Positions 1 to 40,246 of a stretch of 64,000 nucleotides of DNA are shown piece by piece. How positions within the stretch are numbered: the stretch's first letter is position 1; every line of letters starts with the position of its first letter. Where the stretch lies: positions 27,590,001 to 27,654,000 of the forward strand of contig OZ260663.1 in assembly GCA_965285935.1 (NCBI GenBank). The letters are read 5' to 3'. Position numbers and translations under genes: made by a program. The notes below the pieces were generated by a model. It did not search any database. It saw only the letters and a program-made list of their open reading frames with translations, and had not been told where the DNA came from. The stretch comes from Ophelia neglecta (taxonomy: Eukaryota).

Positions 1-3000
1 ATAGCCTTAAAAATAAACTAATTAACTGCCTTTTTACTGCTCATTCAAATAAGGCCGTTAACAAAATATGCAGACACAAACTATAGGACTGTTTAGATAA
101 TCAAGTTTTAGGCACACCTTTCTTGATAGACTCACATAGCCTCTCTTGTCTCATAAGATTTTTCAGTAAATTCCTCTCTAAACTATGTTGCTTATTAATT
201 ATTTTTCGTGTCGACGTAAGCGGCATGTGGCCAGTGGCCGTGTATGGCCAAGTGGGGCCTAATGACAAAATACCTCGGACGGCGGTATGCGCCAAGACAC
301 CTCTCAGCCGACCAAAGCAACATAATCCGACCTACAAAAATGTGCCTTCTAAATTGTACGTATGCCGTTAGGATCAAAACTTGAATATTTGACTTTTTTG
401 TCTGTCCACATTTTCATTGGGTGTACCCAATAAACAAAAGGGGAGAGAGGTATTGGCTATAACAAAGCAATATACCATATCATTGATTACCCCCGCCGAG
501 GTGTTTATTGCGATGAAGCTAGCGGTAGAAAAGCCAGGTGATTGAGGGTGGGCTTGTCAGCGTGTCACCTCTCGCCCTGGTCTCGAGGGAATCTGCCCAC
601 CTCAGCTAAACACCTGGCAGCATCGATAATTAAATCAAGCGCGTAAAGTGATGACCAATTTTATTTTAATACTCATTCGACACGGTGCTAAATTGGGGGA
701 ATACATGGAATAAACCAGTGCTTCTTGTGATAGGCGAGGGGGTTATTGTATATATATATATACATGTATGGATGAAGGCTGGCCGAGCGTTCTTTGAGAG
801 TGCCAGCATGTACAGCACACAGACACTGGCTGTGACCTGTGTGCTATCACAATAGGATGAGGCAGCTAGCTCTACAGGTGCGCCATGTCACGCGGGTACA
901 CGTGTGCTGATATAAAACTGGGACACAGCCGTCATCGATATTTAAATCGGGGTGGTGGTATTTGGACAGCCAGCGCGGAGCCATGAGCAGACGATAGCTG
1001 CAGCCGAGACTTGGCACAGTATATCTATTGGTATTAAGGCACCCCTTCTAATAATCAATGAAAAGAGGAATTAACGGCAGGGGAAGCGGACAGACAGGGG
1101 CCAGATAGTTTGTGGCAGGCGTCCGTGCATTGTGCGATCTCTGAATGCATGAGATATGTACGTAGACCCATTGCCGACCACGTACATACACCCAGGACCC
1201 GGACCATCTGCTGCCGAACAAACAACGGTAAAGAGGGCCAAACTAAGCATATGCTTCCACACAGCTATTGATCGCGGCCCCAGAACAATGGACCCGCTAC
1301 ATTCGGTGGCTGCCAACTCGACCAGCTCCATCGTAAAGCCTTCCCCGCAGTGTGTGCCTCGCTCACTCCAGATCGTGGTCCTTTGTTCAGGCGACTGGCA
1401 TCGAGACCGTTCGTCCCTGTAGACCCAGTTCACCTGTAGCCACACACAATACATTGATGGCTGCTGTCACACAGAGCTCGGGTCCTCAATAACCTTGTTC
1501 TGTAGAGGAGTCAGACCGCCAGCTGACACTGGCGGCCGCTGCGGGCCCTCTTTTCCCTTGAAGAGAACTCTGCCTCCTTCGCTTGTCCTCCACCCAGTCT
1601 CATTGTAATCTGATGATCGCAGTCACCCCCTGAACTCCTAAACAATGACTCACCCATCGGCCATGCTTCTGTTATTTTTATCAGAGTCGGGCCAATAGAT
1701 TAACTATTCTGCTGCCAAACCCGTCTTGGTCTGCCACAAACCATACCTAACCCAAACCGCCCGCGCCATAACCCGGCTCTGCGTTAAACGCGATTACTTT
1801 TGACTTCAACCCTCTTTAAATTCAGCCGTGGTCCTTATTCAACGACCGGGCGCCTTTTTTTAACAACCCGACGGTCCCTAGACGGGCGTAACCATGTGAC
1901 GAGAATGGTGGCCACTTTGTAGTCACAGCCAATATTTGTATAAGCGAGCTCTCGACCACGACAGCCACACCCCGGCGTCCAAGGTTTAAGGTATAATCTT
2001 CCTGGTGAAATCATCATGCAATTCTATAGCTTTAGCTAGTCGGCAATGCCTGCGGAGACGGGGCACTAAGTAGGCGTGTACAAAACAAGTCACTTTGCCA
2101 GTGACGCTGCGACTTGCCCTCTCCTGGACTAATTTCACTCTTCTCAGAGTCTTTGGCTACCCTTTGGGGGGTGCCAGTGCTGATGAAAATGGGTTTGCTG
2201 CGGCGAGCAGCGAGCGAGCCAGGGCCAGCTTCCCGGAAAGACTCTCCGGGGCTGACTGCGGCGTGATGGGCTCTATTAGCGAGTCCATTTATTACAGATT
2301 ATCACCCTCGTAACCAAATCCGCCTTTTGGAAGGAAAGTCGTGTTCGCCGTGTGCGTTCTCTGGGGCTGTGTGGCCTTTCTCGTGGGAGGAGCTCTCCGC
2401 CAGCCCCACTAGCCTGGCGCTTACCGGAAGCCAGCTCGGCAGTGATGAGTTTTCATACCACTTCTACAAGGGCAGGTTTACATCCACGCAGATCTATCAA
2501 CTTGCTTATGATGTATTGTTTTCGTCATACCACACGATGTGTGCATACACTCGAGCGCCAATCTTAAAAAGCTATTACCTGAAAAGGGAGTTGTTTTTCT
2601 TAGCCAGCTCGTGCTCAATGGAGAAATTAAAAATTAAACATAAATAAATAATGATAACCATCTTAGACAGAGGAGGGACACGCTGATTTTCTCTGCATTG
2701 ACAAGTTACATGATGTGAGCGGTTACAATGTACGAGTCCCATGTAGGCCTAGTCGGTTGATGACACAATATGGGCGTTCACCCAATTCTTTAGTAAAGTG
2801 GGCATTTGGTTTGCGGGGTGTTAAAAAATGCCAGGTGGAAATGGCTAGAACATCATGCTTTGGCCAGCGTGTAAATGCACCCAATATAACACCGATAATA
2901 ATCATCAATTAGAAAGATTGGTTTGCTGGCAGACGACATTTAGCTGATACCAAGGCGGCAGCCGGCTTTGTTTGTGCAGCCATTGCCGACCAGGCGACAT

Positions 3001-4718
3001 AACACCAGCTCAGCTTGCCGCGCCCCTCCGAAGCCAAATTATCTTCGCCACAGACGCACCTATGCCACAGCAGAAAGATAAAGCTGTCCATAAAGCATTT
3101 CAGGCAGTGGGAAGACGCAATATAAATGATAAGAGTCATTTTATCGCGTGTGGACCTGACTCATGCATGGCCTGATGGTAACAGATCTCTGGGCGAGCGC
3201 CACAAGACTTACATGACGCTTGTTATTTCCTTTTAGCGAAGCACTCCGGCGATGTATGCTAGCCTTTGCCAGAGGGATATTTAGGGGTTCCAAGATGAGG
3301 CGAAATTAGAATCCATTTCAGGAACCGAAGCGGGTCGTTTGCCAAGGGATCCCGAGCTTTCAGCCGGTGAGCAGCTTGTAATTATGTCGAACAGGAAAAC
3401 ACAAAGTGCCGGCAAAGCTGCATTACAAGAAGAGTAAGGCTAGCCAATGCCCAGGAGAGACAAAATGGCGCTCCGAATTCGCCGAGGAAAGCAGTGTTTG
3501 GAGAGGTACAACTTATTGTAGATAAAGGCAAGAGGTCTCACCGGATATTTTCATTGAATTCTATTTTAGGCTTTCAACTATATTGCAAGGACTTACTCGA
3601 TTACCAAGCACGACTGCCTCGTAGGCACACTGCCTTGCACAAGAGAATAAAGCGAATGGGTGTGCTGCTGTCAGAGGCGATGTGTGTCAAGGGTCGGGGC
3701 CTTACAGGGGTGTCTTCTCTATCACCCAGGCTGGCAGCCATTGCTGACTAGCTGGCGCCGGCAAGTATGCACAACATGGACACAGGCTGATGGGGCGATC
3801 CCTTCAAGTCCTCGCCATCTAATAAGCTAGCTCAGCTCTTCCACTACCTCCATAAGAGAGGCCTGACCCTTGACCTGCCACGACCAGACGGCCCAAGCAG
3901 GCATAGGCCGAGACATACTGCCACTAAAATGCCAATGAACTAGGCTCCCATATCCAGTAAATGCAAAGGCCATTTTCATCAACTGTTTTAAACGCGGCCG
4001 ATTGTAGGGATGTCGTCGGGTTACTGCTGAGTGCCTTATGCATTCCGGATACTTTACGTATCACCAGTTCTCCATTTATCTCGAGACTACTTCCTTTAGC
4101 TGGGGTTTTGGTGAGCTAGATAAAAGCTCGAATTGTGCCTGCGACCGCTATTAAGCGTATTGATTAACGTGTTGCTTGTAACCATGCAAAGCGTCATTTG
4201 GAGTTTTCAATAAAAGTGTTTCATTGTGTCAGCTGGCTCTATATGCTCAGGACTAAACACCCTGTAAATCAAGGAAATCTCGCGAGAAGGAAATGTTCAG
4301 GGGTAGAAATATTCCCCTTGGTGCTGCCTACTCCACTGCTTTCAGTTTTTCAATCTAGGGGAGGAGGAGGAGGGGGGGGGGGGTGTTTGCGGATCATTAG
4401 CTGACTCTGGGCCGCTCCTCTCCCTCGGTAGCCCTCTTTGGCAACTGGCCAATAGGGCAACCTGTTGACAGGCTGGTCTACTTCTGGGGACTCGAAGGGT
4501 CGAGCTATGATGTGCCAGATATTAAACTAATATATCGCATCAGTGAATGTGGGCAGCACCACCGGGAATGATTCGCACTGAAACGTAGGGAAAACGTTCC
4601 TACAAGAGATTCCCCTACTGGAGGCTGTATTACAAATAACATCACGGTCTACTTCACCTTTCGTATATTTTATGCCAAAAAGATTGGTTTTTAACAGTAC
4701 GTTCCTTTTCCGTTCCAG

Positions 4719-7700
4719 CGGAGCTAGCAGACGTTGCCGAGACCAAGCCAATTAAAATACAAGTTGACCTGCAGAACAGAATTTGTCCAGGTATGACTGA
4801 AAAGGATGTGGCAGACGACTCAGTGGTGATGGCGGAGAGGAATGGAAACGGGATGGCGGAACCGGAAGAGAAGCCATTAAACATGGTAGCACCTGTGCGC
4901 GAGGACAAGGGACACCCCGAGAGGAAACGCCGGGCCAGTGACGACAGTATTGACGTGAGTTTACACACAGCTATAAGCTCGAGCCAGCCATATGTTAGCA
5001 TCCGAGCAGTAGGCCTATAATGTATTAATAGTTGCCTACTCCGAGCAACTGTTCAGCTCTGTCGGGTTATTATAATACTGCAATGATAGATATTGAAATG
5101 TAAACCTGACTTAGAAATAAGATATAGTATTTGTGAGATCAGCTCGCGAGTTAGGTGAATGACCGCAGCTCGGTTCTTCATTTCATTTTTATATTTCTGT
5201 TACGTGCAGAGTTCCACAAAGGCTAGCGAGAGTGCCGCCGATGACGCTAAAGATGATGATGATGAAAATGACGACGAAGAGGATGAAAAACTTCAATCAC
5301 GTGACCCGGAAAGATTGAAATCGTTTAATGTACGTCTGCTTTTATCAAAATAGTTCTCACGTGTTTCCTTGGATTTAAAAAATATGTGCACATATATATA
5401 ACTAATGGTCTGCCAGCTTAACTGCATAAGCGAGAAATGTTACAGCACATTTTGAAGCCGTAGCGAATAAATTTTAGGCCAAGTTATAAGACACTCCTAG
5501 AAGGTGGTAATGACAGACACATTATTGATGAACATGCAAACCTTTTCTCGTTAGCACAAGCCATAATTACATTTAACGAATGTTTTAATATTGATGCAAC
5601 CAGTTATATAATATCGTTAATTCAAGCGTTAATTCTTTCGACCATGCCTTCAAAACCAATATGAAACATGTCCAAACTTATTGCAATCCTGGAGTCTGCT
5701 CTGTCCATGCTTATGGGAAACTAAATTCCATGTATTTGGCTACCTGTGATGACATCTGTTTTAAAAATAATTTGTTTTTTAGTGTCCACTTGATACTGAT
5801 GTTAATGTTTTCATTTCCAGATGTTTTGTCGTCTGTTTGTCGACGAGAACTTGGACCGGTCAGTACCCATATCTAAACAACCCAAAGACAAAATTCAGGC
5901 CATTCTCGAGGCTTGCGATCGACAATTCCCGGAATTCCACGAAAGATCCCGAAAGCGAATCCGAACTTACCTGAAGTCTTGCCGTCGTATGAGGCGGTCC
6001 AAGGAGGCCAATGGATGGGAACAGGTACTGGCTTACGTCTCTCTTTTAATAAACACAATGTACAAATCTTCTTTGTTGGAAAAATCAACAGGTGTCCGTT
6101 GTATGATATGGAATGATTCAACCATTCATGACTTTCAAGATGGTGTTTTGAAAAGATGACAATTTAAAAGAATTTATTTAAAACCCTATTTTTTGGCGTG
6201 TCCTACGTTTTAATAAGTTCTACCTTCTTTCCGATCAGCCTCGCGTAAGTATTAATACACAATTCAACACAATTTGCACATGACACATTAGACCAGGTGC
6301 AATTATTTAAGAACATGATTTATTAATTGAATCAATTACCCAATACCTAAGGCGGCAATCACTCTGGCTATGCTTGCACTCAATCACATAGAGGGAATGT
6401 TTTTTTATGATTTGAACATAAATAATTTTAATGACCGTTAACATTGGTTCATTTGGTTGATATTACTTTTGATGCAATTGGTTGTTCCCCCCTTTGAAGT
6501 GTAGATTCTAATTTTGGTGGTGTTGGCTAATTATTGAAAATAATCTAAGTATATGTTTACCAACTAATGTTTATTTTCAATAAAAATTAAATACTCGCAT
6601 TGAGCTTTGGAATATATGTATGCTAAAATTTATTTAGTCCATGTTGGGCATATCTTTTTAAAAGTCTGTGGCAAGGAGTTAATTTTTTATATACATAAAC
6701 ACTGTGTAAGCTAAACAAACTGTAATCAAAATGCTATAAAGAACCAGAATCAGAACAATGTCGGCGAGCGCTTAGGAATTTTTTATTATAATTACACTAA
6801 TAAATAATTACATTTTTTTGTTGCAGTTGCGCCCAACTCCTCCTCATCTTACGTCTGCTGCTGCTGAAAGTATTCTCGCCCAAGCCTGCGAGAACGAGAG
6901 TAACAATGCCAAGAGAATGCGCATGGGCCTTGACCCACTTCCGGCTAATGTGAGTTTGCTTTACGTGTTTCTCATTTGAGTAAAATATCCTGTCTCCCTT
7001 TCAAAACAGAAGTCATATATATGTTATGGTAGGACATGTGTGTTACTTTTTACATGGGAACATGTGTCTACAGATGCTTTGTTTTTCTTCTCAGGTAATG
7101 TGTACTGGGAACCACTTATCGTCTAGTTCCACGGTCACTCCATCCAAGTCACCCCAAGTATCGCCCTCCTCGAGTCTGAAGCAGCCTCGCGAGCACGTGG
7201 CAGTACAACAGGCATCGCCAAATGGGCACGGGCAGACTGATCGCCAAACACCTGTTGGAAGCGGAAGTGACTTCATGAGACATGCGCCGCCATCAGCCCC
7301 GACAGCATTCCGCCCTCCCCACGAGCTGCCTTCGCCGTTTTTCACCAACAGCAATGGTATTTTTCGACCAGGGTTTCCTTCTGCGACCTACCAGCACCCA
7401 GCCCATCACCACCCACCAACCATCCAGCACGCGACTCCTCTCGCCACTCAGATACAAAACGGTAAGTGCCTTAGCAAGTATACTACTGCATCTACACTTC
7501 TGCATTATTCAACACTGATATCGATATATGAGAGTTTCGCATAGCACCCACTTGACAATTGTGACTATACTACTCCTTTAAACGTCTATTGTTACTACTT
7601 TCATACGCCTTTTACTTTTGTTTCGTCATTTGTTGAAGTACTGCTATTACATACATTACAGGCCCTACTGATCTGAGCATGAAGAGCGGCGGGAAAAGTT

Positions 7701-7840
7701 CAACCACTGGGTCCAAGAATCAGTTGAATCAAACCGAGGTCGCCACCATCAAACAACTGATCGCCGGGTACAGAGAGTCGGCCGCATTTCTCTATCGGTC
7801 AGCAGACGAACTAGAACAACTACTACTGCAGCAGAACTAA
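4719..7840 (+). CDS. NOL4: Nucleolar protein 4 / NOL4-like, 5'-partial; exons 4719-4954, 5210-5329, 5821-6024, 6827-6949, 7095-7461, 7662-7840
   Basis: All junctions are GT-AG and phase-compatible. The spliced product contains the NOL4 signatures [66 protein letters not shown] and [23 protein letters not shown], and ends PTDLSMK...[30 protein letters not shown]. The first exon shown follows an acceptor (ccttttccgttccag) and is open upstream of ATG 4793, so further exons probably lie 5'. Confidence 0.93.
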
Positions 7841-9960
7841 AAGGAGCCATGCCTCCCGGAATAGGAATACGGAATAGGACACGACGGTGTCCTATCTGCA
7901 TACATCTTAATTTGGAACTTTTATGTCTGCAAACTACTCACTCAGGATACTGACACATTGCACGATACTGGTGCTGGGCTCTTCAATCATGTGGGTGCTT
8001 GGGTGTTTATAACATAGGACCACGGCGTCATTTCCGGTACGGCCACCGTCTGTGCTTGTCTAGACGCTGTTGTTTTGTACCCTCTTCTTTTAAATACAAA
8101 CATATAGTGCATATGCAAGGATAGTTTCAATCTCAAAGACTAGTAGATGCATATGGAATACATTTTGCCCAGCACCATATGTGTAGACGAGCAGCAAAGG
8201 CAAGGGACAGTTCCCTTAATACAATTAGGCAATCTAAGGCATTACATATACGTTAACCAAAGAATGGGGGTTCTAGTCAAATGCTTGTAGTAATCTCATC
8301 AACCCAGAGTCACATAACTGAACCTACATGTCATGGCCACAGAATTTGGCCCAAAGTTGCACCTGGCGGTTATGTAAGTTGATATATAAAGAAGTCTATG
8401 GGGTTTTCCCTGTATATATGTGCCAGTGTATTGTCATGTGAAGTGCCTGTCCGACTTACGTCACATTTTGACTAATAGTGATGCTATTTTTGTACTCACG
8501 TTTTTCTTGCGCCGGGCCTCTAGACCAATGGGATCAATCTAGCCACAGGTATATGGTAATATTTTTCACGTTTGGAAGTGTACTAGGTCTGTTTATGTAT
8601 ACATGTAAATATAAAATATACAAAGCCTATATTTAACTAACACGGTTATATATAAAATAAAATATGAAAAACATTGCTATCACTCGTAAACTCCCTCATC
8701 CCCTTGCTGGCTTGTGCTTCCACGCAGCTGCAACTATTTGCTTTCCACATTCGATGCAAGACATTCCGACAAAAATTATTACTATGTGTTCTGTGTAGAT
8801 TTCATAGCTAGAGAGGTTGAAGTCGATGATGTTTTGAGGACACCTTTGTTTATTTCTAGTCAAACGCTTTTTATCCCCTCACTTGTGTTTAACCTGAATT
8901 GTTAACTTGTTTATATAGAAAATAAGGACCCACTTTGTTGGCATACATATTATCGCTTCTGTTTTGCGAGTGAAATCAGCAGGTGTGAGATCATGTATTT
9001 TTGTGAGATATGTAAATTGGGAATAACTGAGGGTAAATGGTGCTCTGATAAGAAAATTATTTAGTAGACCTATACGTTAGTAAACAGATGTGGTAATTTT
9101 TCGACATCATAGAATGGGTGTTATTTGTTTGATTGAAATAACAAGGCAGGGTTAGTATTTTATTTTATATAGCTAAGATTCCAAATGTGCATTAAACTGG
9201 TTTGAACTTTTTAATATGTTATTTATTATGTGGTATGGCATTAACTTATTAAGTTGAGCAAACATGCTTCTAGTCACTGTAAAAAAAATTTAATCAGACC
9301 CCTATTTTTTGCTGCCAATGTTATTTGCTACCTCAGAATAGAATATGTGTGATTGTAACATTGGCAATTGGCATTTGGCATTTGATTGTTTGATCTCCGA
9401 GGGTAATTAGTCAGAATATGACCGAATATTTTCTAGTCAAGAACCAATCACAACAAGTGTCCAAGTGATCTATTTATGGATGGTGGTTATGATACAGGTT
9501 AATGAAGTGGATTTTTTATCGTTCTCCAGTAAGGAAAAATAAATAGGGTTCGGGTGGCCATTATGAATCAATTTTGATTTGATAATGTTACGTTAATGAT
9601 ATTGATACAATTAGTAGCGTGGATTACATGTCTCTGATGTATAGTCTGGCAGGATTGCTTAAACATATTGTTAAACTATTAAGCATTTTAGTACGTCATT
9701 GAGTCGTATATAAATGAGGGCGGTACCGGTTTATAAAAAAAACTTGTTTGTCAGATATTGATATTTATATTTCCAAATTGATTTTGTATATTATTTGCCA
9801 ATGGTGTTGTATTTTTAATTATTGTAAGTATACTTGGCTCACGGTCCAAATTATTTACGTTATTTATTGTTTAGTACGCACATCTGGGCCACTGTCAGAT
9901 TTACGCCTTGTTGTAAGAACTAAATTGATTGAAATAAAATGCACTAGTCATTTATTGAAG
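7841..9960 (+). other. NOL4 3'UTR (about 2.1 kb)
   Basis: AU-rich and repeat-free downstream of the stop. AATAAA at 9933-9938 is followed by T/GT-rich sequence. The end is approximate. Confidence 0.6.
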
Positions 9961-10138
9961 CATTTTGTCATTTTTGTGTCTACCGACAAACATTTTTATA
10001 TATTATTGGTGTTATGAAGCTTCATGTAGTTTATATTACAGAATAGCTTCTAGTCGGGAACCGATGGCAACATACTGACAAAGTAATCTATTAACAAGTG
10101 GTTGTTGGTTGTAATTCATGTTTCTAGCGAGCAAAGTA

Positions 10139-10318
10139 CAGTGAAACCTGTGAATTAAGACCACCCAGGGGCTGGAAAATACTGGTCTGATTTCAGAGGT
10201 GGTCTGTTTAGACAGTTTTTTTTTAATACAGAAAGTATACATCATGGTCCTTATATTAGTGGTCTGAATTGACAGGTGGTCTGAGTGTAGAGGTGGTCTT
10301 TAAGGCAGGTTTCCAGGG
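10139..10318 (+). mobile_element. Tc1/mariner(pogo)-type MITE family A, copy 1
   Basis: TA-CAGTGAAACCTG... to ...CAGGTTTCCAGGG-TA degenerate TIR with internal GTGGTCT repeats. Homologous to the copies at 14706, 39343 and 61217. Confidence 0.8.
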
Positions 10319-13300
10319 TAACGTCCTTTGACTAAGTTCAAATGTGTGAATAGAGACAGACTGAGCTGCCACTCGAAACCAATATACGGACTCCATCAAA
10401 CAGGTTTATATCCCTTCTCTAAAGTATTTCAATAAACTATGATATTGTATACGATGATATAATAGTATTGTAAAAATAGAGCATACTAGATCATAACAGC
10501 CAACAGCAGGCGTGGCATTTCTAAAGATAATCCCAGGTCATTATTATTGTAGCCAATTTTATAATGCTAGTTCGCCATGGCAAGAATTCTAACAAAAATC
10601 TACTTCATCAGAAGATAGGAAAACTAATTATGATACTATCAGTATATTAAATGTACGTTTGCTATTTTTAATTTCGTTACAAACTTTATTGTGTGTGGGC
10701 CTGCAGCTGAAAGTTCCTTATGAATTCAGGCTAAATTAATTAACAATTTTTGGTTAGGAGTTTGCTTTATGGGGCGGTTATTCTCTCCTGATTTTTTGCC
10801 AAATAAATATATTAATACCATACATTCTTAAAGCGTGTCCACGTAAATAGTCATATCGAAACTAGGTTAAGGAAGAGGTTTACAACAAAAATTGGAAGAA
10901 TTTAAAGTTTATTGTTTCTTTAAAATACGTTAACATCATTATATGAATGTGAGAAATCAAATTATGTGATTGTGTGTAGCTTTCGATTTTAAACTTAAAA
11001 GACATTATCTTGTGACCTCCGAACGATTAGTCTCCTCAAATTAGATAACTTATATACAAATAATTGTGACTTTCCATGTCTATAGACATCATATCAGGAT
11101 ATTTCTAACAATAACATGTTTGCATTTAAATCCAGTTTTCACTAGTCAGTAGTGAAACAAGATATCATGTCATATCTGTACATTTCTTAATCTTCAGCTC
11201 GCTTTTAACAAGTGCAGCAATTGTGTAGTGGTGACGGTCGGTTTTAGCCAATGAGAAGAAAGCTTATATAATACATCCTTGTAATACCAGCGAAATGTTT
11301 CTGTAATATCGTTATGATTCGAGAATGCTTGGCGGAACCGGAAGTATTTTTCTAAGAATAGAGGTGGTCAATGCGAGACTGCATTTATCTCATTATTTAT
11401 ATTATTGGGCGGATAAACTTTGGTGTATAAACTATGCATTTATCATATAATTTATATTATCAAGCCGATAAACTCTAAAGTGTAAACTTTGAAAGACTAT
11501 GTATTCAAGAGTAAGAATATCAAGGCAAAACAAAAAGGTAAAGGAACAGATATAATCTATGAATTTGGCTAATCAGATGAAATTAAACAGGTCGAGCTGT
11601 GCAGAAGCTAATAATCTTCATGACAACAGTGGAACCAGAAACCAGAAGTTTATAACAAATGTATTAAGGCGGAAAAACCATGTGGGAATTCTTGGAAAAA
11701 CACATACAGAAGGTTAGTAACCTTACAAGATGGAATAGATACTTTTCACATAAAATAGCCATTTGCACTTAAAGACGTTGTCTTTTAAGGCAAAGCCAGA
11801 AATTACCATATCATATAACACATACGACTTAGGAAAAAAACTAAATATATAAGGAATGTCAAATCAGTGGATGTGAAGGAATAAAAATCACAGAATAAAC
11901 GTCGAAAAGTGCCTAAAGGAGATACTAAATGGATATACAGAATATGAGAAGGCAAACTTAAACGTGATAGAAGCATGAGTGACTTAGTAATGTATGTCGG
12001 CCGTACGCGCTATCACAGATGTGTATACATGAACATCTCTGGTCCTATGTATAATACATAACCAGGTGATCGGGAGATGTGACGAAACAATGCCACGGAT
12101 GAAAACATAGATACAAAGGATGTTTTAATAGAGGAATAAAAAGGTAACCGAATAGGTATAATTCACACATTAATAATGTCCTTCCATGGACTTCCAATGT
12201 GTCGAAACGGGGGTTTAAGATATTAACATAAGCGTCATGACAATTGAGTAGATAAATAAGAAGCAAAAACAAGACCTTTCCAATTGTCACTACTTTTCTA
12301 TGATATCAACCAAAAAATATGTCATATGTATTTACTTTCTCCACTTTAAAATAGAAAAAAAATGATAGAATATAAATCAATAGATATAAAATGACAGACT
12401 AGTCAGGAGTGGTTCTCAACAGCGTCCTGTTTAATTGAAGATACTATGCCAAGTGTAAGTTAATATTAACAATACCAAATCCGATATGTAATCCTGTTTA
12501 CTTTTAATTAGTTTCAATAAAAGACATATCTGTGTTAGAAAAAAGGTGGCGTCAAAGCACATATCTATACAATTCAACGCTCTGGGAGCCACAGCCGGAG
12601 GTTATATAACCGTCAAAAACCGTATTTTACGTTGCAAGTCCTAGGTCCAACGGCCAGACCATGAGAATAATTTGATGACTTCTTGGGTTTACTATACGTA
12701 CTTTATATGATAGATACATAAATACGTTGTATAACAAAATTTTAGTAATCTCGTTGCCAGCATAGTGAGCCCTGATTGTTCGAAACGCACAACAACCCCA
12801 AATGTTGACTTCTCATTGGTTTATTACTGGACATTAAATAAGGCACAGAGGTATTCTGAGAAGATGGAATGAAGAACCAAGCCCGGCATTAGCGCTTCGG
12901 AACAGCTTCTCTACTCAGAAAAGTTTTACTCCATGCTGCGTTCAAAATAATAAGCTCATCGATACACATTATATGTAATTAGCCTAAAATTCTGGATTCC
13001 GTGTCGCAGTTTAACATATATTGTAATCGACATTTTGCGCTGCAAAACTTTCACTTGACAATACAAATAATATATGTCTTATATATATATATTTTCTAGC
13101 AAATCCCCGACTCATATTTTCACTGGGGTTTGATTACATTTATAATGTGTTTCTTCAATTATCGCTGTGTTACAGGCGAAGTTATAATTTGTCTTTGTCA
13201 TGCCAAAAAGTGCACATGGTTCAATGACGCAAATGTGTCATCTTGACGTACATAATTTGTAGTCCTATTTATTTTACTTTCCAACCAATTAATAATATCG

Positions 13301-14705
13301 CATACATAGGCCAAGGCCTATAGGCCAATATATGTAGGTAAGTACATTGCAAAAAACAGCAGGTAATATTATATTATATAGATGTAGGTGGTGTGATGAA
13401 ATGATCGAATCATGATTATAAGAGATGATTTATGTTTTAGTTGGATGACTATGTTATTCATGTGACCTTTATTTCTCAATGATATATTAACTTCATTTTA
13501 AATGCACGTACACATGCTTGTACTTCATTTGCTTACAGGCTTTAGTTACCGTAAGCGTATCACACATTAGTACAGTCAGGTGCTTTTTAAGGTAGCCACC
13601 AATGTTTGTACACAGTACGTTGTATAGCTGTCCCCTATCGCCAGTCTACATGTAGGGCCTACTTCCCTAGGTGTAAGGAGAGCTTAACAAGACCTCAAGA
13701 AGAGTGATTATATGATGCCTTGATGTGTTTTCCTACACACATAGACTGTTCACTGGCTGGATTATTATATGATCTAACTACCAACTACAGAACTGTCAGC
13801 CGCAGTGTATCAGTGATTTTATACCATTTTTATATAAGTATATCGATTATTTCAAAAACTAGGACTTGAGATTTGGAATATCACCTCGGACCAGTGTCTT
13901 CAATGAAAATAGTCTTTCGCTAACTTGCAAGGTGAGCAGTTAAATGTTTCATGACGACTAGTTGGTCGACGGCCTACGTACAAATACCTCCCAGAAATGT
14001 TACACAGACAATAATGAATGTTAAACAGATCACTTTAGTTTACCTGTTGAACGGCATTTTCACACACTAGAGGGAAATATGGTGTTACCATTTGGGTTTT
14101 ACAATCGTCTGAGGCCACAAGGGTAGGTCTTCTACACCCCAACAAACTTGGCCGTAGGCGGTATATTGTATACATGGTATTTTTACATGGTTTTTAATCA
14201 GACACCTTCGCCTAACGTCTATAAATTCCCCCCATGTTAATAAGGGCGTATTTGCAGTCATAAAGACAGAAATTAATGAAATGAACTTCTGTCAAATATC
14301 AATACATATAGGCCTATATAGCGGAGCAACATCATATTTATCGCATTGCCAATGAATGACTCTTCTTATTATGGGTAATTTCATATACATGCATTGCCAA
14401 ACTTCGATCAAATCGTGCAAGCGCCATAATAATTGAATCACCTCTCAGTGCCTTCATACAACCACCAGGAATCAGGTAACCGAGGAGAAGAATGTCATTC
14501 CTACTTATCTCAAGGTAAAAATATATTAAACTGCGTAGTTCAGATAATTATCTATCGGGTGGCAACAGGTCTGGTTGTACTACGGTGTACTTGCTTGGCA
14601 GCGCACCTTCCATGTGTATGTGTATGCTAAATGGTTTTTTGTTTAATGTCCCATGCCCGGCTTCAATGCAGACGACCCAGTTAACATGGCAGAAAGTTCC
14701 CTACA

Positions 14706-14883
14706 CAGTGAAACCTGTGAATTAAGGCGACCAAAGGGACTGGAAAATAGTGGTCTGAATTCAGAGGTGGTCAGTTTAGACAGGTTATCTGATATTGAAA
14801 GTATACGGCACAGGCCTCATATTAGTGGTCTGAATTGACATGTGGTCTGATTATAGAGGTAGTCTTTAAGGCAGGTTTCACAG
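14706..14883 (+). mobile_element. MITE family A, copy 2
   Basis: CAGTGAAACCTGTGAATTAAG...GGCAGGTTTCACAG-TA; aligns end to end with copy 1. Confidence 0.8.
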
Positions 14884-14999: not shown

Positions 15000-15163
15000 G
15001 TAAACAACCCATACATGCTTACTATTTAGAGCTAGCTCCGGTCTATTGTTGCATATTATCTACTATGTATACACTTGTAGACACAGGAGTAAATAATCAT
15101 ACATGGTGTACAAACATTCCATTCCCGACTTGATCGTCGGAATTAGATATTTCAGGTTAAAAT

Positions 15164-17209
15164 ATGGGCAGTCGTGGACTATTCTCGGACCTTCCAGAAC
15201 TGATGTGGTCAGATGATACCTATACGCTGAAGGAGATATGTCAGGGCTTAGAATCACCTACCCTCATCAAGTTACCCGGGGACACCCCGCACCTGAACCT
15301 GGGAGATCTGGTGGAGAAGGACCGGCCGTTCCTCGCCTATTCCCGCCGTCGGAGGACCAAGTTATACGGGGAAAACCTTACCTGGAACGCCGTGAGAAAA
15401 CAATATGTACCCACAGGGCCCGTCCTGGAGATACCTAAAGACTACGCTGGTATTTACACATATTAATAGCTAGGCCTATTCGGTGAACCCTTTTTAAGGT
15501 TTCCTCATAATTATAATAATTGAATATATACTTTTTTTTCCGCATTCAACCTTGTCAGTGATATTTGATCTTCATAATTACAATAGACACTTATGGTTCC
15601 TACATAAACTGACTATATCTATTAATTTATTTAAGTGCAAAGCATTACACCACTTGTCACCGAAATGATCTTTCACCAGTACATTAACAAGCATAGTCAT
15701 CCAGTTCGCTGCACACTAACCTCAAGGTGAAAGAAGAAAATCACAAAGTGCCCTCCTACATCGGAATTTGATCTCTTCTGCTATAATCCATTCAAAATAG
15801 AAAAGAATGGTGTGATTATATTATAATACAATCACACCTTGTGTAGGCCTACACATATTATTTGATTGTGACTTTGTTGAGACCTGATTCATTCTCAACT
15901 ATAATACTCAGTTACAAATTCTTGTCAAATTAATTTAAAAATTGTATGGCCTAATTACAGTTTGCCTCGAATCTTTTAGTGTGGGGAATTTTCTAGTAAT
16001 GGATCCTTGACATAATGTTAAAAGCAAGTTGTACTTTCAGGATGGTTTGACGTGGTGAGGGCAGGCGAGGACGCTCCCAGACACCACTTGTCCATAGAGA
16101 GTGTCGCCGGAACTGGATGTAAACATTTTCTCGTCTGCTCGACCTTAGCTGGCTTTAAATGCTCCGAAGGGACCGACGAGTTAAAAATCACCGCAGAAAT
16201 CAGGGTTTACCCGGGAGAAGTCATACAAGTGATCGGCATCGTCACAAAAACATGGAAGGTGAAGGATGACAAGGTAAAGATCTCGAAAAAACCCAGCACC
16301 ATTTTCCTGAAATGTATCGACGGAAAGAAAAGAGATATATATTTACCGTATGCGCATCCGGGCAAGTTTTGCGCCATACACGAAAATGAGAGGGATGACC
16401 ATAATGTTGTTTATCAGGCGGGAGATCTTCTGCAGTTTGATTTTCCCATATTAGTTAGGCTTGTTTTCGGATGGCCTCCGCCTACGTTTTCCGAGTTTAC
16501 CGGCTTCATTCGTTTAGTTGGCATTAACAGACCGGACAGTTTGGTTCTGTACAACATCGTACCAAACAGAAGTGTTGTCCTCGAAGTTCCGACAGATATC
16601 GACTGTCAATGGAGCAAAGCGGAAAATGAAGACGGGTTGAAATTGTCAGCAGATTTCAAAAAGGTTATGGAAAATTGTTGTAATAAAGTGTTTCCCTATC
16701 TCATTACGATGAAGTGTCTTGACGTTAGATACTTTCGGATTTCGAAAACATCACAAGCTAGTCAGGAGAGAGAAGAGGAGGCAGTTACAGAATCAGAGAC
16801 AGACCAGAAACAGCGGAAGACCGGGCGTATGGCACGGCCGGTAGATATGGACTCGTTCATCACTACAGACGTGTATCCAAAACTGACCAGAGAGACCAAA
16901 GTATCAGACAGCTGGAGTTTTTCATTCAAGGACCCGGATTACGTTTACGGCCACAATGGTCAAGTCGCAGAAGAGAATGCCGTCTGGGTTGATATAGAAG
17001 AAGGAGAACTAAAACCAATGCGCTCAAAGCACAATGGGAACAAAAAACGGAAGTCGAAAGCAATGAGGCCGGAAAGCTTTGCCGGTGAAGCAGGAGCGTT
17101 CCAGCAGATGTCGCTGCAAGAAACGATTGCCTCGCCTGAGCGAGAGTGGACCGGAACGGTGCGGGAGTCACGTGAACGAGACGTTATGTTTCGTGAAGCC
17201 AACTGTTGA
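15164..17209 (+). CDS. Single-CABIT-domain protein (GAREM/THEMIS/serrano family), ~484 aa; exons 15164-15449, 16041-17209
   Basis: A phase-1 intron (g|gtattt ... gtactttcag|ga) joins the two long ORFs into ...VPTGPVLEIPKDYAG-WFDVV... (cf. GAREM VIGPKIEIPVHYAGQF). N-terminal WS..TL...L.P pattern; CABIT Cys motif FLKCIDGKKRDIYLPYAHPGKF; low-complexity C-terminal tail. An acceptor ending at 15155 implies upstream non-coding exon(s). Confidence 0.85.
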
Positions 17210-22099: not shown

Positions 22100-23056
22100 C
22101 AGGGACCAAAATTACCGCTTTCACGATTGCACGGGGCAAAAGGTTTTGCTCTCAGGCTAGCTCTTTATTAGCTGTACTTGCCCGACGAGCAAATGAAGCA
22201 AAAAAAACACACAAAATTCGGGCAAGTAGTCAGTTTTGTCCGCTCATCGCTCCCATTTTGGTTCACAGTAAAATTGTCAAAATTGTTGTAACTCGTTCGT
22301 CCATATAGCAGATAGTGTGCTTTACTCGCGAAACGCAATGTGTGCAGTGGAGCCCAGAGCGAATTACCGCAAGAAGTGTATACTTGTATCCTCCCCTCTA
22401 GCGGCTGCTGTTATGCAAAATCAATGTGGGTCAAATTTATCGCGCCTCTCTCGTTGCAAAGGACAAAATTGGACCCCGAACCTGCTGTCCACCTATGGAA
22501 CAGTGGAAGCAGTAGGGGGAGAACAGTCATGAGGGTTAATGAAAAAATTGCTAGGATAGTATTGCTGGGGGTGGTGAAGAGATAGCAGGGGAGGTGGAGG
22601 ATGGGGATGGTATGGAACTGGGGAATCTTGATGGGGATGGTGTGAAGGCAGCACAAAAACATGACAGAGACATTGATGAGGACTATTAATCAGACGATAG
22701 TGACAGTGAAGGGGAGAAAGAGGCCTACAAATTGTTTTTAAGTGCCCAGCAATAGTTTTCATGATTCTGTGGGGTGGATTCTCATGAAAATAAAAGAAGT
22801 GTCAAAGCTATGAATATGTTTAATGTTTTTGCATTGCATTGCCTGCTTCATTAATGTTCTAGGTGGGTGTAACAATTCACTTCTCATTTTTTCACCATTA
22901 TTTACCACTATGTAGCATTTGTGGCAACCTCTTTCTTTTTTAGGGCAAGTTTAATTTTTATGTTACTTGCCCTTGGTCAAATAGATTTGAAGTTGGGCAA
23001 GTAACATAAAAACTGAACTTGCCCACAGGGCCAGTGATAAATGGCTGGATGCCTGA
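22100..23056. mobile_element. hAT-like non-autonomous element (CAGG...CCTG ends, subterminal CTTGCCC/GGGCAAG repeats)
   Basis: Clusters of gggcaa/ttgccc motifs at both ends; degenerate TIR; no clear TSD. Confidence 0.5.
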
Positions 23057-23390
23057 AATCGGCTATTAATGCCTCTTAGTGGCCATTTCTTGGCAACCAG
23101 CGCATCAATGTTTGGTAATAACTTAAAAAATAGCACAGGGACCTGCATTTTTTGTGTTTTCTATCTGTTATGCATGTCTTCAATTACCATCCTTAAGAAT
23201 AAAAAAAGAATATTTTTCATACCTAAAACATTTTGTCAATAGATTGAGGTCAAAATTTGATGTTTTAAACCCCATTTGACCCCATATGTGGAAATCTATG
23301 TTTTATAAGAATTATTCCCGAATGAGTTCTTGATATATTCCATTAATGTTGAAACTTTAAACATTGTATTATACATTTGAAGAAACACCC

Positions 23391-23640
23391 CAGGGTTCTA
23401 CACTAACTTTTCTCAGCTCTTGCCCTGAGGGAAAGTAGCACCAGGAAACTACTTGCGCACACCATAGGCTTACTGTCCCAAAAATATTGGTACATGTAAA
23501 ATATAAAAGATATCCAACAATCAGCGATTTGGGGAATTTTAGCAGGTTGCCCGGCGGGAAGTTAGTAACTAAAACCTTTGTGCCCGCAAGCAGATTTGAG
23601 GTGCCCTGGGACATCGAGCAATAGTTAGTGTAGACCCCTT
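23391..23640 (+). mobile_element. hAT-like MITE family B
   Basis: TIR CAGGGTTCTACACTAAC / GTTAGTGTAGACCCCT; the internal sequence recurs at 56521-56664. Confidence 0.75.
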
Positions 23641-24169
23641 CACCCTAGACAAGGCCTTGCCCCAGTGACCCACCTTAACAAATTAGTGCCAACAATTTTA
23701 GTGGAACATGTTTATAGAACCTGAGCAAAGCTCATAAAAAGTTTTTAAAGAATTAAATCGCCAGTGCTACCGTATAGGTACTCCTCACTGAGACACTGGT
23801 TGGGGGAACTAGCTGTCAAACATGCTAGTTTACAACAACCACCCCCTCGTGGACTTGTGTAGTGAGTAACAAATGCATATTGAGTAGCTGTGCGGGCTAC
23901 GTTACACTCCGGGCAATCTTGTCCTGGTCATTCGGTCGTAGATTGTCCTTATATGGAAGGAGGAAGGGGTACTGACACTGATTCCTATGTAACACTACAA
24001 GTGTACAACTTGTGGCGAATGTCACTCGACTGCATGGCCAGGTTCATTTGTTGAAAAATATTTTATGTCCTGGAAAAAAGGCATATTGAGAATTTAAATG
24101 CTAATCTAGCAAAAACAGAGTATCTAGTGCTCCCTATGTATATGTTTTTCTTTTCCTTTGACAGAAACA

Positions 24170-30942: not shown

Positions 30943-33143
30943 GTTCACAGCAAGGGCCAAAGACACGCCACGTTTACCGCTAGGGCCAAAGTCACGCTAC
31001 GTTTACCGCTAGGGCCAAAGACACGCGACATTTACCGCTAGGGCCAAAGACAATTCACGTTTACCGCTAGGGCCAAAGACACGCGACGTTTACCCAAAGA
31101 CACGCCATGTTTACCGCTAGGGCCAAAGGCACGCCTCGTTTACCGCTAGGGCCAAAGTCACGCCACGTTTACCGCTAGGGCCAAAGACACGTCACGTTTA
31201 CCGCTGGGGCCAAAGACAGGCGACATTTACCGCAAAGGCCACAAACACGCGACGTTCACCGCTAGGGCCAAAGACACGTCACGTTTACCGCTAGGGCCAA
31301 AGACACGCCACGTTTACCGCTAGGGCCAAAGACACGCGACATTTACCGCTAGGGCCAACGACAATTCACGTTTACCGCTAGGGCCAAAGACACGCGACGT
31401 TTACCCAAAGACACGCCATGTTTACCGCTAGGGCCAAAGGCACGCCTCGTTTACCGCTAGGGCCAAAGTCACGCCACGTTCACCGCTAGGGCCAAAGACA
31501 CGTCACATTTACCGCTAGGGCCAAAGACACGCGACGTTTACCGCTAGGGCCAAAGACACGCAACATTTACCGCTAGGGCCAACGACAATTCACGTTTACC
31601 GCTAGGGCCAAAGACACGCGACGTTTACCCAAAGACAAGCCATGTTTACCGCTAGGGCCAAAGGCACGCCTCGTTTACCGCTAGGGCCAAAGTCACGCCA
31701 CGTTTACCGCTAGGGCCAAAGACACGTCCCGTTTACCGCTGGGGCCAAAGACAGGCGACATTTACCGCTAGGGCCAACGACAATTCACGTTTACCGCTAG
31801 GGCCAAAGACACGCGACGTTTACCGCTAGGGCCAAAGACACGAGACATTTACCGCTAGGGCCAACGACAATTCACGTTTACCGCTAGGGCCAAAGACACG
31901 CGACATTTACCGCTAGGGCCAACAACAATTCACGTTTACCGCTAGGGCCAAAGACACGCGACGTTTACCCAAAGACACGCCATGTTTACCGCTAGGGCCA
32001 AAGGCACGCCTCGTTTACCGCTAGGGCCAAAGTCACGCCACGTTTACCGCTAGGGCCAAAGACACGTCACGTTTACCGCTGGGGCCAAAGACAGGCGACA
32101 TTTACCGCAAGGGCCACAAACACGCGACGTTCACCGCTTGGGCCAAAGACACGTCACGTTTACCGCTAGGGCCAAAGACACGCGACGTTTACCGCTAGGG
32201 CCAAAGACACGCGACATTTACCGCTAGGGCAAACGACAATTCACGCTTACGGCTAGGGCCAAAGACACGCGACGTTTACCCAAAGACACGCCATGTTTAC
32301 CGCTAGGGCCAAAGGCACGCCTCGTTTACCGCTAGGGCCAAAGTCACGCCACGTTTACCGCTAGGGCCAAAGGCACGCCTCGTTTACCGCTAGGGCCAAA
32401 GTCACGCCACGTTTACCGCTAAGACACGCTACGTTTACCGCTAGGGCCAAAGACACGTCACGTTTACCGCTGGGGCCAAAGACAGGCGACATTTACCGCA
32501 AGGGCCACAAACACGCGACGTTCACCGCTAGGGCCAAAAACACGTCACGTTTACCGCTAGGGCCAAATACACGCGACACGTCCCGCTAGGGCCAAAGTCA
32601 CGCCATGTTTACCGCTAGGGCCAAAGACACGCGACATTTACCGCTAGGGTCAAAGACACGCGACGTTTACCGCTAGGGCCAAGGACACGTCATGATTACC
32701 GCTAGGGCCAAAGACATGTTAGGTCCACGCTAGGGCCAAAGTCAAGCCATGTTCACCGCTAGGGCCAAAAACAAGCGACATTTACCGCTAGGGCCAAAGA
32801 CACGCGACGTTTACCGCTAGGGCCAAGGACACGTCATGATTACCGCTAGGGCCAAAAACACGTCACGATTACCCAAAAAACGCCACGTTAACCGCTAGGG
32901 CCAAAGACACGCCACGTTTACCGCTAGGGCCAAAGTCATGCCACGTTTACCGCTAGGGCCAAAGACAGGCGACATTTACCGCTAGGGCCAAAGACACGTC
33001 ACTTTACCGCTAGGGCCAAGGACACGTCACGTTTACCGCTAGGGCCAAAAAACGCGACAATTACCGCTAGGGCCAAAGAAAGGCAACGTTTATAGCTAGG
33101 GCCGAAGACACGCCACATTTACCGCTAGGGCCAAAGACACGCC
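30943..33143. repeat. 29-bp minisatellite (~75 units), consensus TTTACCGCTAGGGCCAAAGACACGCCACG, with higher-order repeats
   Basis: Direct period count (units at 30973, 31002...). Recurrent 21-bp deletion units at 31089, 31400, 31624, 31964 and 32275. Confidence 0.97.
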
Positions 33144-38620: not shown

Positions 38621-39342
38621 GTCTTTCTTTCTGGCAAAATAACTTTCACATTACCCAGGATATTCGATTGTACTGCTCTCGTCTAAGCAAGTCAGTTATT
38701 TTTATCATTATGATTGAATGTGATCAAATTTTACTTCCTGCAAAGAATACGAAATGGGAATTTTATAATGGTTGAGTGGAAGCAATTTTTCGAATAGACC
38801 AACAAGTCAAAGTTTCAAGTGGTGTCTGGGGTACGTGACGGATTGTGGTGTTAAGATCTATCATATCAAGTATGTAAGCTCCTCTTCTAAATAAATTCAA
38901 GTGCTTAGTCAACGATTGGTTGTTTCTTTTCTTAACCCGTAAAGCACAAATGAGAATTCTACATGTTAAAATTGATGGAACCCTTAGGTGAAGTATTTAG
39001 GGACGCACCATAATATAACTGGGTTGGGCTAAACATGTTTTGATGAAAAAAATTGTCAAACATATTTGGATGAACAAATTTCGGGGGGCAAATTAATCAA
39101 AAATAGGTCTTTTTACAAAAGTTTGTCGTGAAAACGTCGAAAAGTGTGCGTTTGCGAAAAGATTAATACAAGTTTAAATATTGAAATTTCGTTTTTCGAA
39201 ACCTCTCGAAATTAGGAGAAAAGGCTCGAAATGAAGAAAAGATCACGAATTTAGTAGAGATAATTAAGAAAAGTTGCGGTAATACACTTTAAATCTCGTT
39301 ATTCCGGTCTTTAAATCGAGTTTTTCTACGCATTTCGAGGTA

Positions 39343-39531
39343 CAGTGGAACCTACCTTAAAGAACCTACCTTTAAGACCACCTTAAAGACCACATCTGTT
39401 AATTCAGACCACCAATATGAGGTTGTTGCTGTATACTTTCAATTTTAAATTACCTGTATAAACAGACCATTTCCAAAATCAGACAAGTATTCTCCAGTTC
39501 CTTTGATGGTCTTAATTTACAGGTTTCACTG
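39343..39531 (-). mobile_element. MITE family A, copy 3 (reverse orientation)
   Basis: TA-CAGTGGAACCT...CAGGTTTCACTG-TA. Confidence 0.8.
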
Positions 39532-40246
39532 TATTTCGTTTTTGTTTCCATTTATCCGGTTTTAAAGTCGTAATTTTGTGATTGATCTTGTAATTCCGTG
39601 TATTTTTTCAAGAATTTTATCGTTATTTCGAATATTCGAGTTTTAAGAAGGCGAAATTTAAAGATGTAAATAAATTATTTCATGTTCCGATTTGAAGGTA
39701 TACCAGACATTATCATATAAATAAAGCACCCTGCGTGCGGGTACGGCTGAGACAACATTTCGAAGTCAGTGGAACGACTTTAGCTAGACTAAGGACTTCA
39801 GTAGTACGGAGGCCGGTCATTAATTCTCTCTCTTCCAAGGAGCATATAGGCCTACTTTCAACCACAGAAGAATATCATGCAGTTCTCCGTGAATTTTACG
39901 GGGTTGATCTTCCGTACATAAATAACATCCCGGGTCAAAGCCCAGGAATAACTTTGTTTGGGCAGAGTTCCTACTTACAAAGCAAAACAAGACAGTTTTT
40001 GACATCTGTGACCTCAGTCAGTGAAATTCATGAATTGGCCCATTTTAACACAATCCATTGGTCGCCGGTAATAGGTACTTGAATGAACGGAAGTTATGTC
40101 CAACAGGATTGCTCCACATGTCAAGCGTCTTTAATATAGGCATACTATTTTATTTTTAAATTAAATAATACACACCGAAATTGCCTTAATAAATACCGCA
40201 AAATAGGTCAATAACACAGAACGTTGTATTCGCAGCACGTAGAGTA

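What the first reader, a model, noticed from the sequence alone, without database searches (positions are those of the whole stretch)
8272..9950. Four perfect miR-279 8-mer seed sites in the NOL4 3'UTR
Seen: TCTAGTCA at 8272-8279, 8855-8862, 9269-9276 and 9432-9439, plus CTAGTCA at 9944-9950, each in unrelated flanking context (not a tandem repeat). A rough base-composition estimate expects well under 0.1 copy per 2 kb. Known: this is the 8-mer complement of the protostome miR-279 family seed (UGACUAGA), a neural-fate regulator in Drosophila (target nerfin-1). Inference: NOL4 is a strong miR-279 target; I know of no report of this.
Basis: partly seen in the sequence, partly recalled or inferred. 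Interest (0 to 1): 0.72.

Follow-up and report, generated by a model that had tools for sequence, protein, structure and literature searches.

The report
Clustered miR-279 sites behind NOL4
Just downstream of the NOL4 gene of a worm-like or shelled invertebrate sit four perfect docking sites for the microRNA miR-279, far more than chance gives, which makes NOL4 a strong but untested candidate target of a microRNA that keeps neuronal genes off in non-neuronal cells of flies.

Summary
Observation confirmed. TCTAGTCA occurs four times in the window, all on the sense strand, 432-1592 nt behind the NOL4 stop; 0.02-0.03 copies are expected in 2.3 kb, and 0 of 4000 shuffles gave even two. The gene is NOL4 (PF23079) of a lophotrochozoan, probably not a mollusc, a clade that has miR-279. 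Additions: all four sites are the 9-mer TTCTAGTCA; a sixth site (7mer-m8, 10049) was missed and is a copy of site 9432 in an 85-nt local duplication; site 9944 lies 5 nt behind the best distal poly(A) signal; a proximal signal at 8656 would leave one site. Against: as 'any 8-mer anywhere in the window', a cluster this strong arose in 3 of 60 simulations; site context gives no extra support; the fly orthologue has no listed miR-279 site; UTR extent, conservation and host miR-279 could not be tested. Best reading (0.72): selected canonical miR-279-family sites on a long 3'UTR, repressing NOL4 where miR-279 is abundant. Known mechanism, apparently unreported target, prediction only. Interest 0.4.

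The parts
4719..4954 (+). NOL4 coding exon (first one recognisable in the window; the 5' part of the gene was not found)
   Evidence: AG/GT borders, weak tblastn hits of named NOL4 proteins
5210..5329 (+). NOL4 coding exon, acidic
   Evidence: AG/GT borders; open in the exon chain
5821..6024 (+). NOL4 coding exon, helical domain PF23079
   Evidence: Pfam E 1e-32; up to 97% identity to lophotrochozoan NOL4
6827..6949 (+). NOL4 coding exon, end of PF23079
   Evidence: Pfam E 9e-6; borders
7095..7461 (+). NOL4 coding exon
   Evidence: tblastn; borders
7662..7840 (+). NOL4 last coding exon, stop TAA at 7838-7840
   Evidence: C-terminus matches named NOL4 proteins; six-exon chain gives 408 aa without internal stop
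7841..9960 (+). Inferred long 3'UTR (end not shown)
   Evidence: Follows the stop; longest stop-to-stop frame 99 aa; T>A and G>C skew from about 8740 to 10240; no Rfam match
8272..8279 (+). miR-279-family 8mer site 1 (the only one upstream of the proximal poly(A) signal)
8855..8862 (+). miR-279-family 8mer site 2
9269..9276 (+). miR-279-family 8mer site 3 (most accessible, 91st percentile)
9432..9439 (+). miR-279-family 8mer site 4 (predicted paired, 9th percentile; inside duplicate copy A)
9944..9950 (+). 7mer-A1 site, 5 nt behind AATAAA 9933-9938, in the expected cleavage zone
10049..10055 (+).
9416..9500 (+). Local duplicate, copy A
   Evidence: blastn E 3e-6; score 63.5 versus 16+-3 in shuffles with core removed, 0 of 200
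10033..10122 (+). Local duplicate, copy B, next to a MITE-like element
8656..8661 (+). Candidate proximal poly(A) signal AATAAA: two TGTA upstream, weak GU-rich downstream element
9538..9543 (+). Candidate poly(A) signal AATAAA; an end here keeps all four 8mers
9933..9938 (+). Best candidate distal poly(A) signal AATAAA, with a U/GU-rich run downstream
8256..8263 (+). Single miR-9 8mer match, 8 nt upstream of site 1 (chance level on its own)
9328..9335 (+). Single let-7 8mer match (chance level on its own)
10138..10320 (.). MITE-like dispersed element just downstream; likely outer bound of the UTR
   Evidence: three further copies in the window at 77-85% identity; right end read from the sequence

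Best explanation
The four 8-mers are canonical, seed-only target sites for the miR-279 family (seed GACUAGA) on a long 3'UTR of NOL4, kept or gained by selection. Steps: (1) shown: the sites exist on the sense strand behind the NOL4 stop and are enriched; (2) from papers: the word is the optimal miR-279 site and lophotrochozoans carry and can highly express miR-279; (3) inferred: an mRNA ending near 9560 or 9955-9965 carries all four; (4) inferred: Argonaute loaded with miR-279 binds each site independently (they are 163-583 nt apart, beyond the short range usually given for cooperation, recalled) and lowers NOL4 mRNA and protein; (5) inferred by analogy to fly insb and nerfin-1: miR-279 is active in non-neuronal or progenitor cells, so NOL4, a nuclear cofactor that is brain-expressed in vertebrates, is confined to cells with low miR-279, probably neurons; (6) speculative: use of the 8656 signal gives a short isoform with one site that largely escapes. 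Steps 1-4 carry the stated confidence; step 5 about 0.3; step 6 about 0.2.
For: P(>=4) about 1e-8 to 6e-8; 0 of 4000 shuffles with two copies. The two top-ranked 8-mers of the region are TTCTAGTC and TCTAGTCA; after repeat masking they are the top non-homopolymer clusters in the window. The top word is in exact seed register: of 6 sense 6-mer cores in 7841-10137, 5 have the position-8 match and 5 the position-1 A, against 0 of 15 with the position-8 match among cores elsewhere on either strand as tallied except one (T.T), and 8mer > 7mer-m8 > 7mer-A1 is the efficacy order measured in fly (PMC6172730, passages). 4 sense versus 0 antisense 8-mers. Three sites beyond the proximal signal are enriched on their own, P 8e-7. 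Host is lophotrochozoan; mir-279 is reported in Capitella and Lottia and is the most abundant miRNA in pearl-oyster gill and mantle (PMC6627748). In fly only insb and nerfin-1 have two conserved 8mers and both are genetically critical targets (PMC5800810). My arithmetic: 58 seeds x 6e-8 is about 3e-6 per UTR, about 0.07 for an assumed 20,000 genes.
Against: No transcript end, host miRNA list or orthologous UTR could be examined. Fly CG46301 (NOL4) is absent from the 4,026-gene TargetScan table although neighbouring CG numbers are present. With no prior, 3 of 60 simulated windows gave as strong a cluster. Context adds nothing: flank AU 0.62-0.72 versus mean 0.65; accessibility percentiles 0.59, 0.71, 0.91, 0.09; no 3'-supplementary word for nt 13-16 upstream of any site. 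The duplicate does not show selection: one mismatch in 8 has neutral P 0.40. The invariant T opposite guide position 9 (4 of 4 independent sites, 0.35^4 = 0.015) cannot pair with the U that snail and oyster miR-279 have there, and position 9 was chosen in only 2% of fly efficacy models. Other seeds are at chance level (3 of 57, about 2 expected, compared by eye). Some flatworm lineages are reported to have lost mir-279, so presence is not guaranteed for every lineage.
Confidence: 0.72

Rival explanations
1. Chance cluster of a rare word, helped by local duplication; no function.
For: A scan of many windows will meet such clusters: 3 of 60 simulated windows had one as strong for some 8-mer. One real local duplication copied a site. 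Site context is unremarkable. The fly orthologue lacks listed sites.
Against: The word is not arbitrary: it is one of about 58 seed matches out of 65,536 8-mers, in register, on the sense strand, right behind a stop codon. The duplication explains only the sixth site; the four 8-mers have unrelated flanks. 0 of 4000 shuffles gave two copies.
Confidence: 0.1
2. The 9-mer TTCTAGTCA is a homotypic cluster for a DNA-binding factor (downstream enhancer) or for an RNA-binding protein, and the seed match is coincidence.
For: All four sites share a ninth base that miR-279 does not explain. A second word, TACGTTA, also recurs four times. Sense-only orientation of four independent copies has two-sided P 0.125, weak on its own.
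Against: I know of no factor with this consensus (recalled; no motif library on hand). Musashi-type words (12) and UAG (42 versus 38 expected) are not enriched. The two degenerate copies are exactly the canonical 7mer-A1 and 7mer-m8 types. No shared RNA structure: fold z-scores -0.3 to +1.9, no Rfam match.
Confidence: 0.07
3. The mRNA ends at the 8656 signal, so only site 1 is ever seen by a miRNA; sites 2-4 are relics or lie in untranscribed DNA.
For: Canonical AATAAA at 8656 in an AU-rich stretch with two upstream TGTA and a Pumilio-type element at 8604.
Against: Weak downstream GU element at 8656 (8 GU/UU dinucleotides versus 15 at 9538 and 9933); strand skew continues to about 10240; the three distal sites are enriched on their own (P 8e-7), which this reading leaves unexplained.
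Confidence: 0.08
4. Variant of the best reading: the main guide is not the canonical miR-279 but a family paralogue with A at position 9, which would pair with the invariant T (not exclusive of the best explanation).
For: T at target position 9 in 4 of 4 independent sites. The word for such a guide occurs in papers on Daphnia, mites and flatworms (search listing only). The family has many clade-specific duplicates.
Against: The two lophotrochozoan tables seen (snail, pearl oyster) list one member each, with U at position 9. No annelid, nemertean or brachiopod table was found. P 0.015 is post hoc.
Confidence: 0.15

Closest known systems
Drosophila insb (Insensible, CG6520) as miR-279/996 target (PMC5800810, passages)
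   Same: Same 8mer, several copies in one 3'UTR; nuclear cofactor; the paper shows miR-279/996 restricts it to neurons post-transcriptionally.
   Different: Two conserved 8mers, validated by reporter and genetics; here four 8mers, unvalidated, conservation unknown, a different gene and phylum.
Drosophila nerfin-1 as miR-279/996 target (PMC4456407 passages; PMC12064045 S2 table)
   Same: Most heavily targeted gene of the family (5 predicted sites); neuronal nuclear regulator; strongly derepressed in mutants.
   Different: Zinc-finger transcription factor with sites also predicted in Tribolium (PMC6961396); NOL4 is a helical-domain cofactor and its fly orthologue has no listed site.
NOL4/NOL4L family (Pfam PF23079)
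   Same: Helical domain and C-terminal motif present; in vertebrates brain- and testis-expressed and a cofactor of Mlr1/Mlr2 (LCoR, E93 family) (PMC5343783, passages).
   Different: miR-279 is described as a non-chordate family, so this control cannot exist in vertebrates; nothing was found on invertebrate NOL4 regulation in the searches run.

Membership tests
Canonical miR-279-family target | Perfect match to guide nt 2-8 (GACUAGA) plus A opposite nt 1 | tested here: met
   4 copies; seed from PMC7328434 Table II and PMC4238352
Canonical miR-279-family target | Sites on the sense strand behind the stop codon | tested here: met
   4 sense, 0 antisense, 432-1592 nt after the stop
Canonical miR-279-family target | Sites inside the mature mRNA | tested here: inconclusive
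   Only poly(A) signal context and strand skew; no transcript data
Canonical miR-279-family target | Enrichment over background | tested here: met
   weaker without a prior on the word (3 of 60)
Canonical miR-279-family target | Host encodes and co-expresses a GACUAGA-seed miRNA | not testable with these tools
   Clade-level support only; no mir-279 hairpin in this window
Canonical miR-279-family target | Sites conserved in orthologous UTRs of related species | not testable with these tools
   No animal genome collection; octopus site list unreadable
Pan-protostome conserved miR-279 target (like nerfin-1 in insects) | Predicted site in the fly orthologue | tested here: not met
   CG46301 absent from the TargetScan table; caveat: could be missing from that UTR set
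Canonical miR-279-family target | Favourable context (AU-rich, accessible, 3'-supplementary pairing) | tested here: inconclusive
   AU at the regional mean; 3 of 4 sites above median accessibility; no nt 13-16 pairing
Canonical miR-279-family target | Seed-dependent repression or AGO binding | not testable with these tools
   Needs reporter, CLIP or knockout
NOL4/NOL4L family | PF23079 helical domain above the curated cut-off | tested here: met
   112.8 bits versus cut-off 26
NOL4/NOL4L family | Conserved C-terminal motif ending the protein | tested here: met
Tandem or dispersed repeat as source of the four 8-mers | Homologous flanks around the copies | tested here: not met
   No pair among the four aligns above shuffles; a core-masked profile of the duplicate finds no third copy; TRF finds nothing there

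The most novel reading that the evidence does not exclude
NOL4 is a conserved, dominant miR-279 target across lophotrochozoans, the counterpart of nerfin-1 and insb in flies: miR-279's anti-neural role would be ancestral to protostomes but wired to a different effector, an LCoR/E93-family cofactor, with alternative polyadenylation (one site versus four or five) setting how much of NOL4 escapes.
Probability: 0.2. Interest if true: 0.65.

Novelty: new member of a known kind. Interest (0 to 1): 0.4.

Why it matters
miR-279/996 is one of few miRNA loci with strong mutant phenotypes, and its function is known almost only from flies. In fly, genes with two conserved 8mers proved to be the critical targets, so four 8mers single out NOL4 as a first concrete candidate effector in a lophotrochozoan and offer a handle on a poorly understood neural cofactor. 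The mechanism itself is textbook, and the claim is a sequence prediction in one genome until conservation and UTR extent are shown.

Tried and rejected
Hidden repeat or ancient tandem duplication behind the near-regular spacing (583, 577, 617 nt): rejected for the four 8-mers; the apparent 9269/9944 homology came from the single 85-nt duplicate and vanished when it was excluded (34 of 200 shuffles as good). Helitron 3' ends (CTAG followed by T; recalled): rejected, upstream flanks are not homologous. Coding sequence or structured RNA in the stretch: longest frame 99 aa, no Rfam match, folds no better than shuffles. Musashi-type enrichment: none. Selection test on the duplicate: uninformative (P 0.40). 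Conservation in octopus: the archive of PMC9699675 stopped at its first large file, so its list of conserved sites was not seen; it may bear directly on the claim. Pearl-oyster and Tribolium supplements hold no NOL4 name, which is no evidence either way. Narrowing the host with a CABIT protein: no hit among 7999 candidates. The NOL4 tree is the quick one; the careful search did not finish. Annelid miRNA tables with sequences were not found. Of the fly table I read part 1 of 14 and ran term searches on all of it. bioRxiv supplements were closed.

Full report
Observation. TCTAGTCA occurs exactly four times in the 64 kb, at 8272, 8855, 9269 and 9432, all on the + strand, and CTAGTCA is at 9944-9950 as stated. 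The count for the whole window is not remarkable (9 of 100 shuffles reach four); the clustering is. Markov models of order 1-4 expect 0.023-0.034 copies in the 2297 nt between the NOL4 stop and the next transposon-like element, P(>=4) 1e-8 to 6e-8. Of 4000 dinucleotide shuffles of that stretch, 93 had one copy and none two; 151 had some A-ending 8-mer at four copies, but only 1 of them a word as rare as this one. The two most enriched 8-mers of the stretch are TTCTAGTC (5 copies) and TCTAGTCA (4), and after masking repeats they are the best non-homopolymer clusters of the window. The honest limit: asked as 'any 8-mer, anywhere in the window', 3 of 60 simulated windows gave a cluster as strong as the four-copy one. 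The case therefore rests on the word being a known seed match and on its position. By my arithmetic 58 seeds x 6e-8 gives about 3e-6 per UTR and about 0.07 for an assumed 20,000 genes, under a null that ignores duplication.

Gene and host. The upstream gene is NOL4: PF23079 at 112.8 bits, up to 97% identity of that exon to mollusc, annelid and brachiopod proteins against about 76-84% for deuterostome and arthropod ones. Six GT-AG exons from 4719 to 7840 give 408 aa without internal stop, ending in the family's C-terminal motif; the 5' part of the gene was not found in the window. In a quick tree of 35 rows (named references only, 34 of the 120 listed hits) the protein falls with annelids, nemerteans and Lingula (SH-aLRT 84, unresolved inside), nearest to Ridgeia at 68%. 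The host is thus a lophotrochozoan, probably not a mollusc. PMC4238352 (section 7 read) reports ancestral mir-279 throughout lophotrochozoans, including Capitella and Lottia, and gives the seed GACUAGA. PMC7328434 (Table II read) and PMC6627748 (supplement row and passages) list one member each, with U at position 9. PMC3840308 (passages) reports loss of mir-279 in tapeworms and flukes, so presence in this species is likely, not certain. No mir-279 hairpin lies in the window.

A sixth site, TCTAGTC followed by G (7mer-m8), is at 10049. Its surroundings (10033-10122) are a 72-76% copy of 9416-9500, which holds site 4 (blastn E 3e-6; score 63.5 against 16+-3 with the core removed, 0 of 200 shuffles; alignment). 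A core-masked profile of the pair finds no third copy (best other hit E 4), and no pair among the four 8-mers aligns better than shuffles, so the four are independent and the sixth is not. The copy keeps 7 of 8 site bases, which neutral decay gives with P 0.40: no evidence of selection. All five TCTAGTC matches have a T in front. For four independent sites that is P 0.015 at the local T frequency. It cannot pair with U9 of canonical miR-279, and position 9 was chosen in 2% of fly efficacy models (PMC6172730, passages); it stays unexplained and keeps a paralogous guide or a protein-binding motif alive as rivals.

Is it UTR? Not shown. No frame over 99 aa lies there and no Rfam family. Canonical AATAAA signals are at 8656, 9538, 9933 and 10431. 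The one at 8656 has two upstream TGTA but a weak downstream element; 9538 and 9933 have U/GU-rich downstream runs; 10431 has none and lies beyond a MITE-like element. T>A and G>C skews run from about 8740 to 10240. An end at 9538 or 9933 keeps all four 8-mers; an end at 8656 keeps one. The three distal sites are enriched by themselves (P 8e-7), which argues for a long isoform if the miRNA reading is right. Site 9944 starts 5 nt behind the 9933 signal, in the zone where cleavage normally falls (established knowledge), so it may be cut or hidden; site 10049 is probably outside the mRNA.

Site quality. Of six sense 6-mer cores in the stretch, four are 8mers, one a 7mer-A1 and one a 7mer-m8; of the 15 cores elsewhere on either strand only one has the position-8 base and none is an 8mer. 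This is the signature expected of seed selection, given the measured order 8mer > 7mer-m8 > 7mer-A1 in fly. Other context features give no support: flank AU 0.62-0.72 against a mean of 0.65, accessibility percentiles 0.59, 0.71, 0.91 and 0.09, and no complement of guide nt 13-16 upstream of any site. Comparing the 626 A-anchored 8-mers of the stretch by eye with 58 seeds from the snail table, only miR-279 has more than one site; let-7 (9328), miR-9 (8256) and miR-1991 (9030) have one each, 3 of 57 against about 2 expected. The stretches behind the two CABIT genes carry one and no 6-mer core.

Mechanism. Most likely Argonaute loaded with a GACUAGA-seed miRNA binds the four sites independently and lowers NOL4 output on the long isoform (confidence 0.72). 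What for is inferred by analogy. In fly, miR-279/996 is active in non-neuronal cells of sense organs and restricts the nuclear factor Insb to neurons through two conserved copies of this same 8mer; nerfin-1 is the only other fly gene with two conserved 8mers (PMC5800810, passages) and is strongly derepressed in mutants (PMC4456407, passages). miR-279/996 is also enriched in neuroblasts over neurons (PMC12064045, section 7). In pearl oyster miR-279 is the top miRNA of gill and mantle; no nervous tissue was sampled. Vertebrate NOL4 is brain- and testis-expressed and modulates Mlr1/Mlr2, the LCoR/E93 family (PMC5343783, passages). A neuron-restricting role for these sites fits but is about 0.3 likely. 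The comparison 'four here versus two in fly' is not like for like: the fly count is of conserved sites.

Comparison and novelty. The one cross-species check available was negative. CG46301 is the fly NOL4 (PMC12154101, passage) and is absent from the table of 4,026 genes with a TargetScan site for 13 families including miR-279, while CG46298, 46302, 46304 and 46306-46309 are present; it could be missing from that UTR set for other reasons. In part 1 of 14 of that table only nerfin-1 had four or more miR-279 sites. The link is therefore not pan-protostome on present evidence; conservation within Lophotrochozoa is untested because the octopus list of conserved sites could not be read and no animal genomes were open. 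Searches for 'miR-279' with 'NOL4' (1 paper, the terms unrelated in the passages seen) and with 'nucleolar protein 4' (0 papers) found no report; listings showed none either. The library lacks most subscription papers, and unseen supplements may list the pair.

Verdict. A real, statistically strong cluster of canonical miR-279-family sites behind a lophotrochozoan NOL4; a new candidate member of a well-known kind of regulation, unvalidated, with UTR extent, host miRNA and conservation open. Interest 0.4; 0.65 if it proves a conserved dominant target (probability about 0.2).

Noticed in passing
window 8249, 9073, 9589, 9856 (and 10926): TACGTTA recurs four times in the inferred UTR (expected 0.19, uncorrected P 4e-5, not significant over 16,384 7-mers); it matches no seed in the snail table. 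Could be a lineage-specific seed or a protein motif. The first copy forms a 32-nt cluster with the miR-9 match and miR-279 site 1.
   Followed up: partly
window 8411-8418 and 8604-8611: Two Pumilio-type elements (recalled consensus) in the proximal UTR; 29 such matches in the window, so not enriched by themselves.
   Followed up: partly
window 10138-10320, 14705-14879, 39363-39536 (-), 61214-61367: About 180-bp MITE-like element with terminal inverted repeats, four copies at 77-85% identity.
   Followed up: partly
window 30953-33143: Satellite of period 29, about 78 copies, 80% matches.
   Followed up: no
window 15161-17209 (+) and 36872-38650 (-): Two CABIT-domain genes (PF12736); the second is a long single frame with no relative found among 7999 candidates, so the family diverges fast or the lineage is poorly sampled.
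   Followed up: partly
window 1-4700: GC-rich (44-52%), CpG-rich non-coding stretch upstream of the NOL4 exons, without tblastn hits to NOL4 N-termini; may be a long intron or promoter region with regulatory elements.
   Followed up: no
window 22177-23656: CTTGCCC occurs five times within 1.5 kb after repeat masking (P 6e-8); gene context not examined. It shows that other word clusters of similar strength exist in the window.
   Followed up: no
window 11142 and 12399: Two further 7mer-A1 matches sharing a 14-nt likeness (13 of 14), probably beyond the transcript end.
   Followed up: partly
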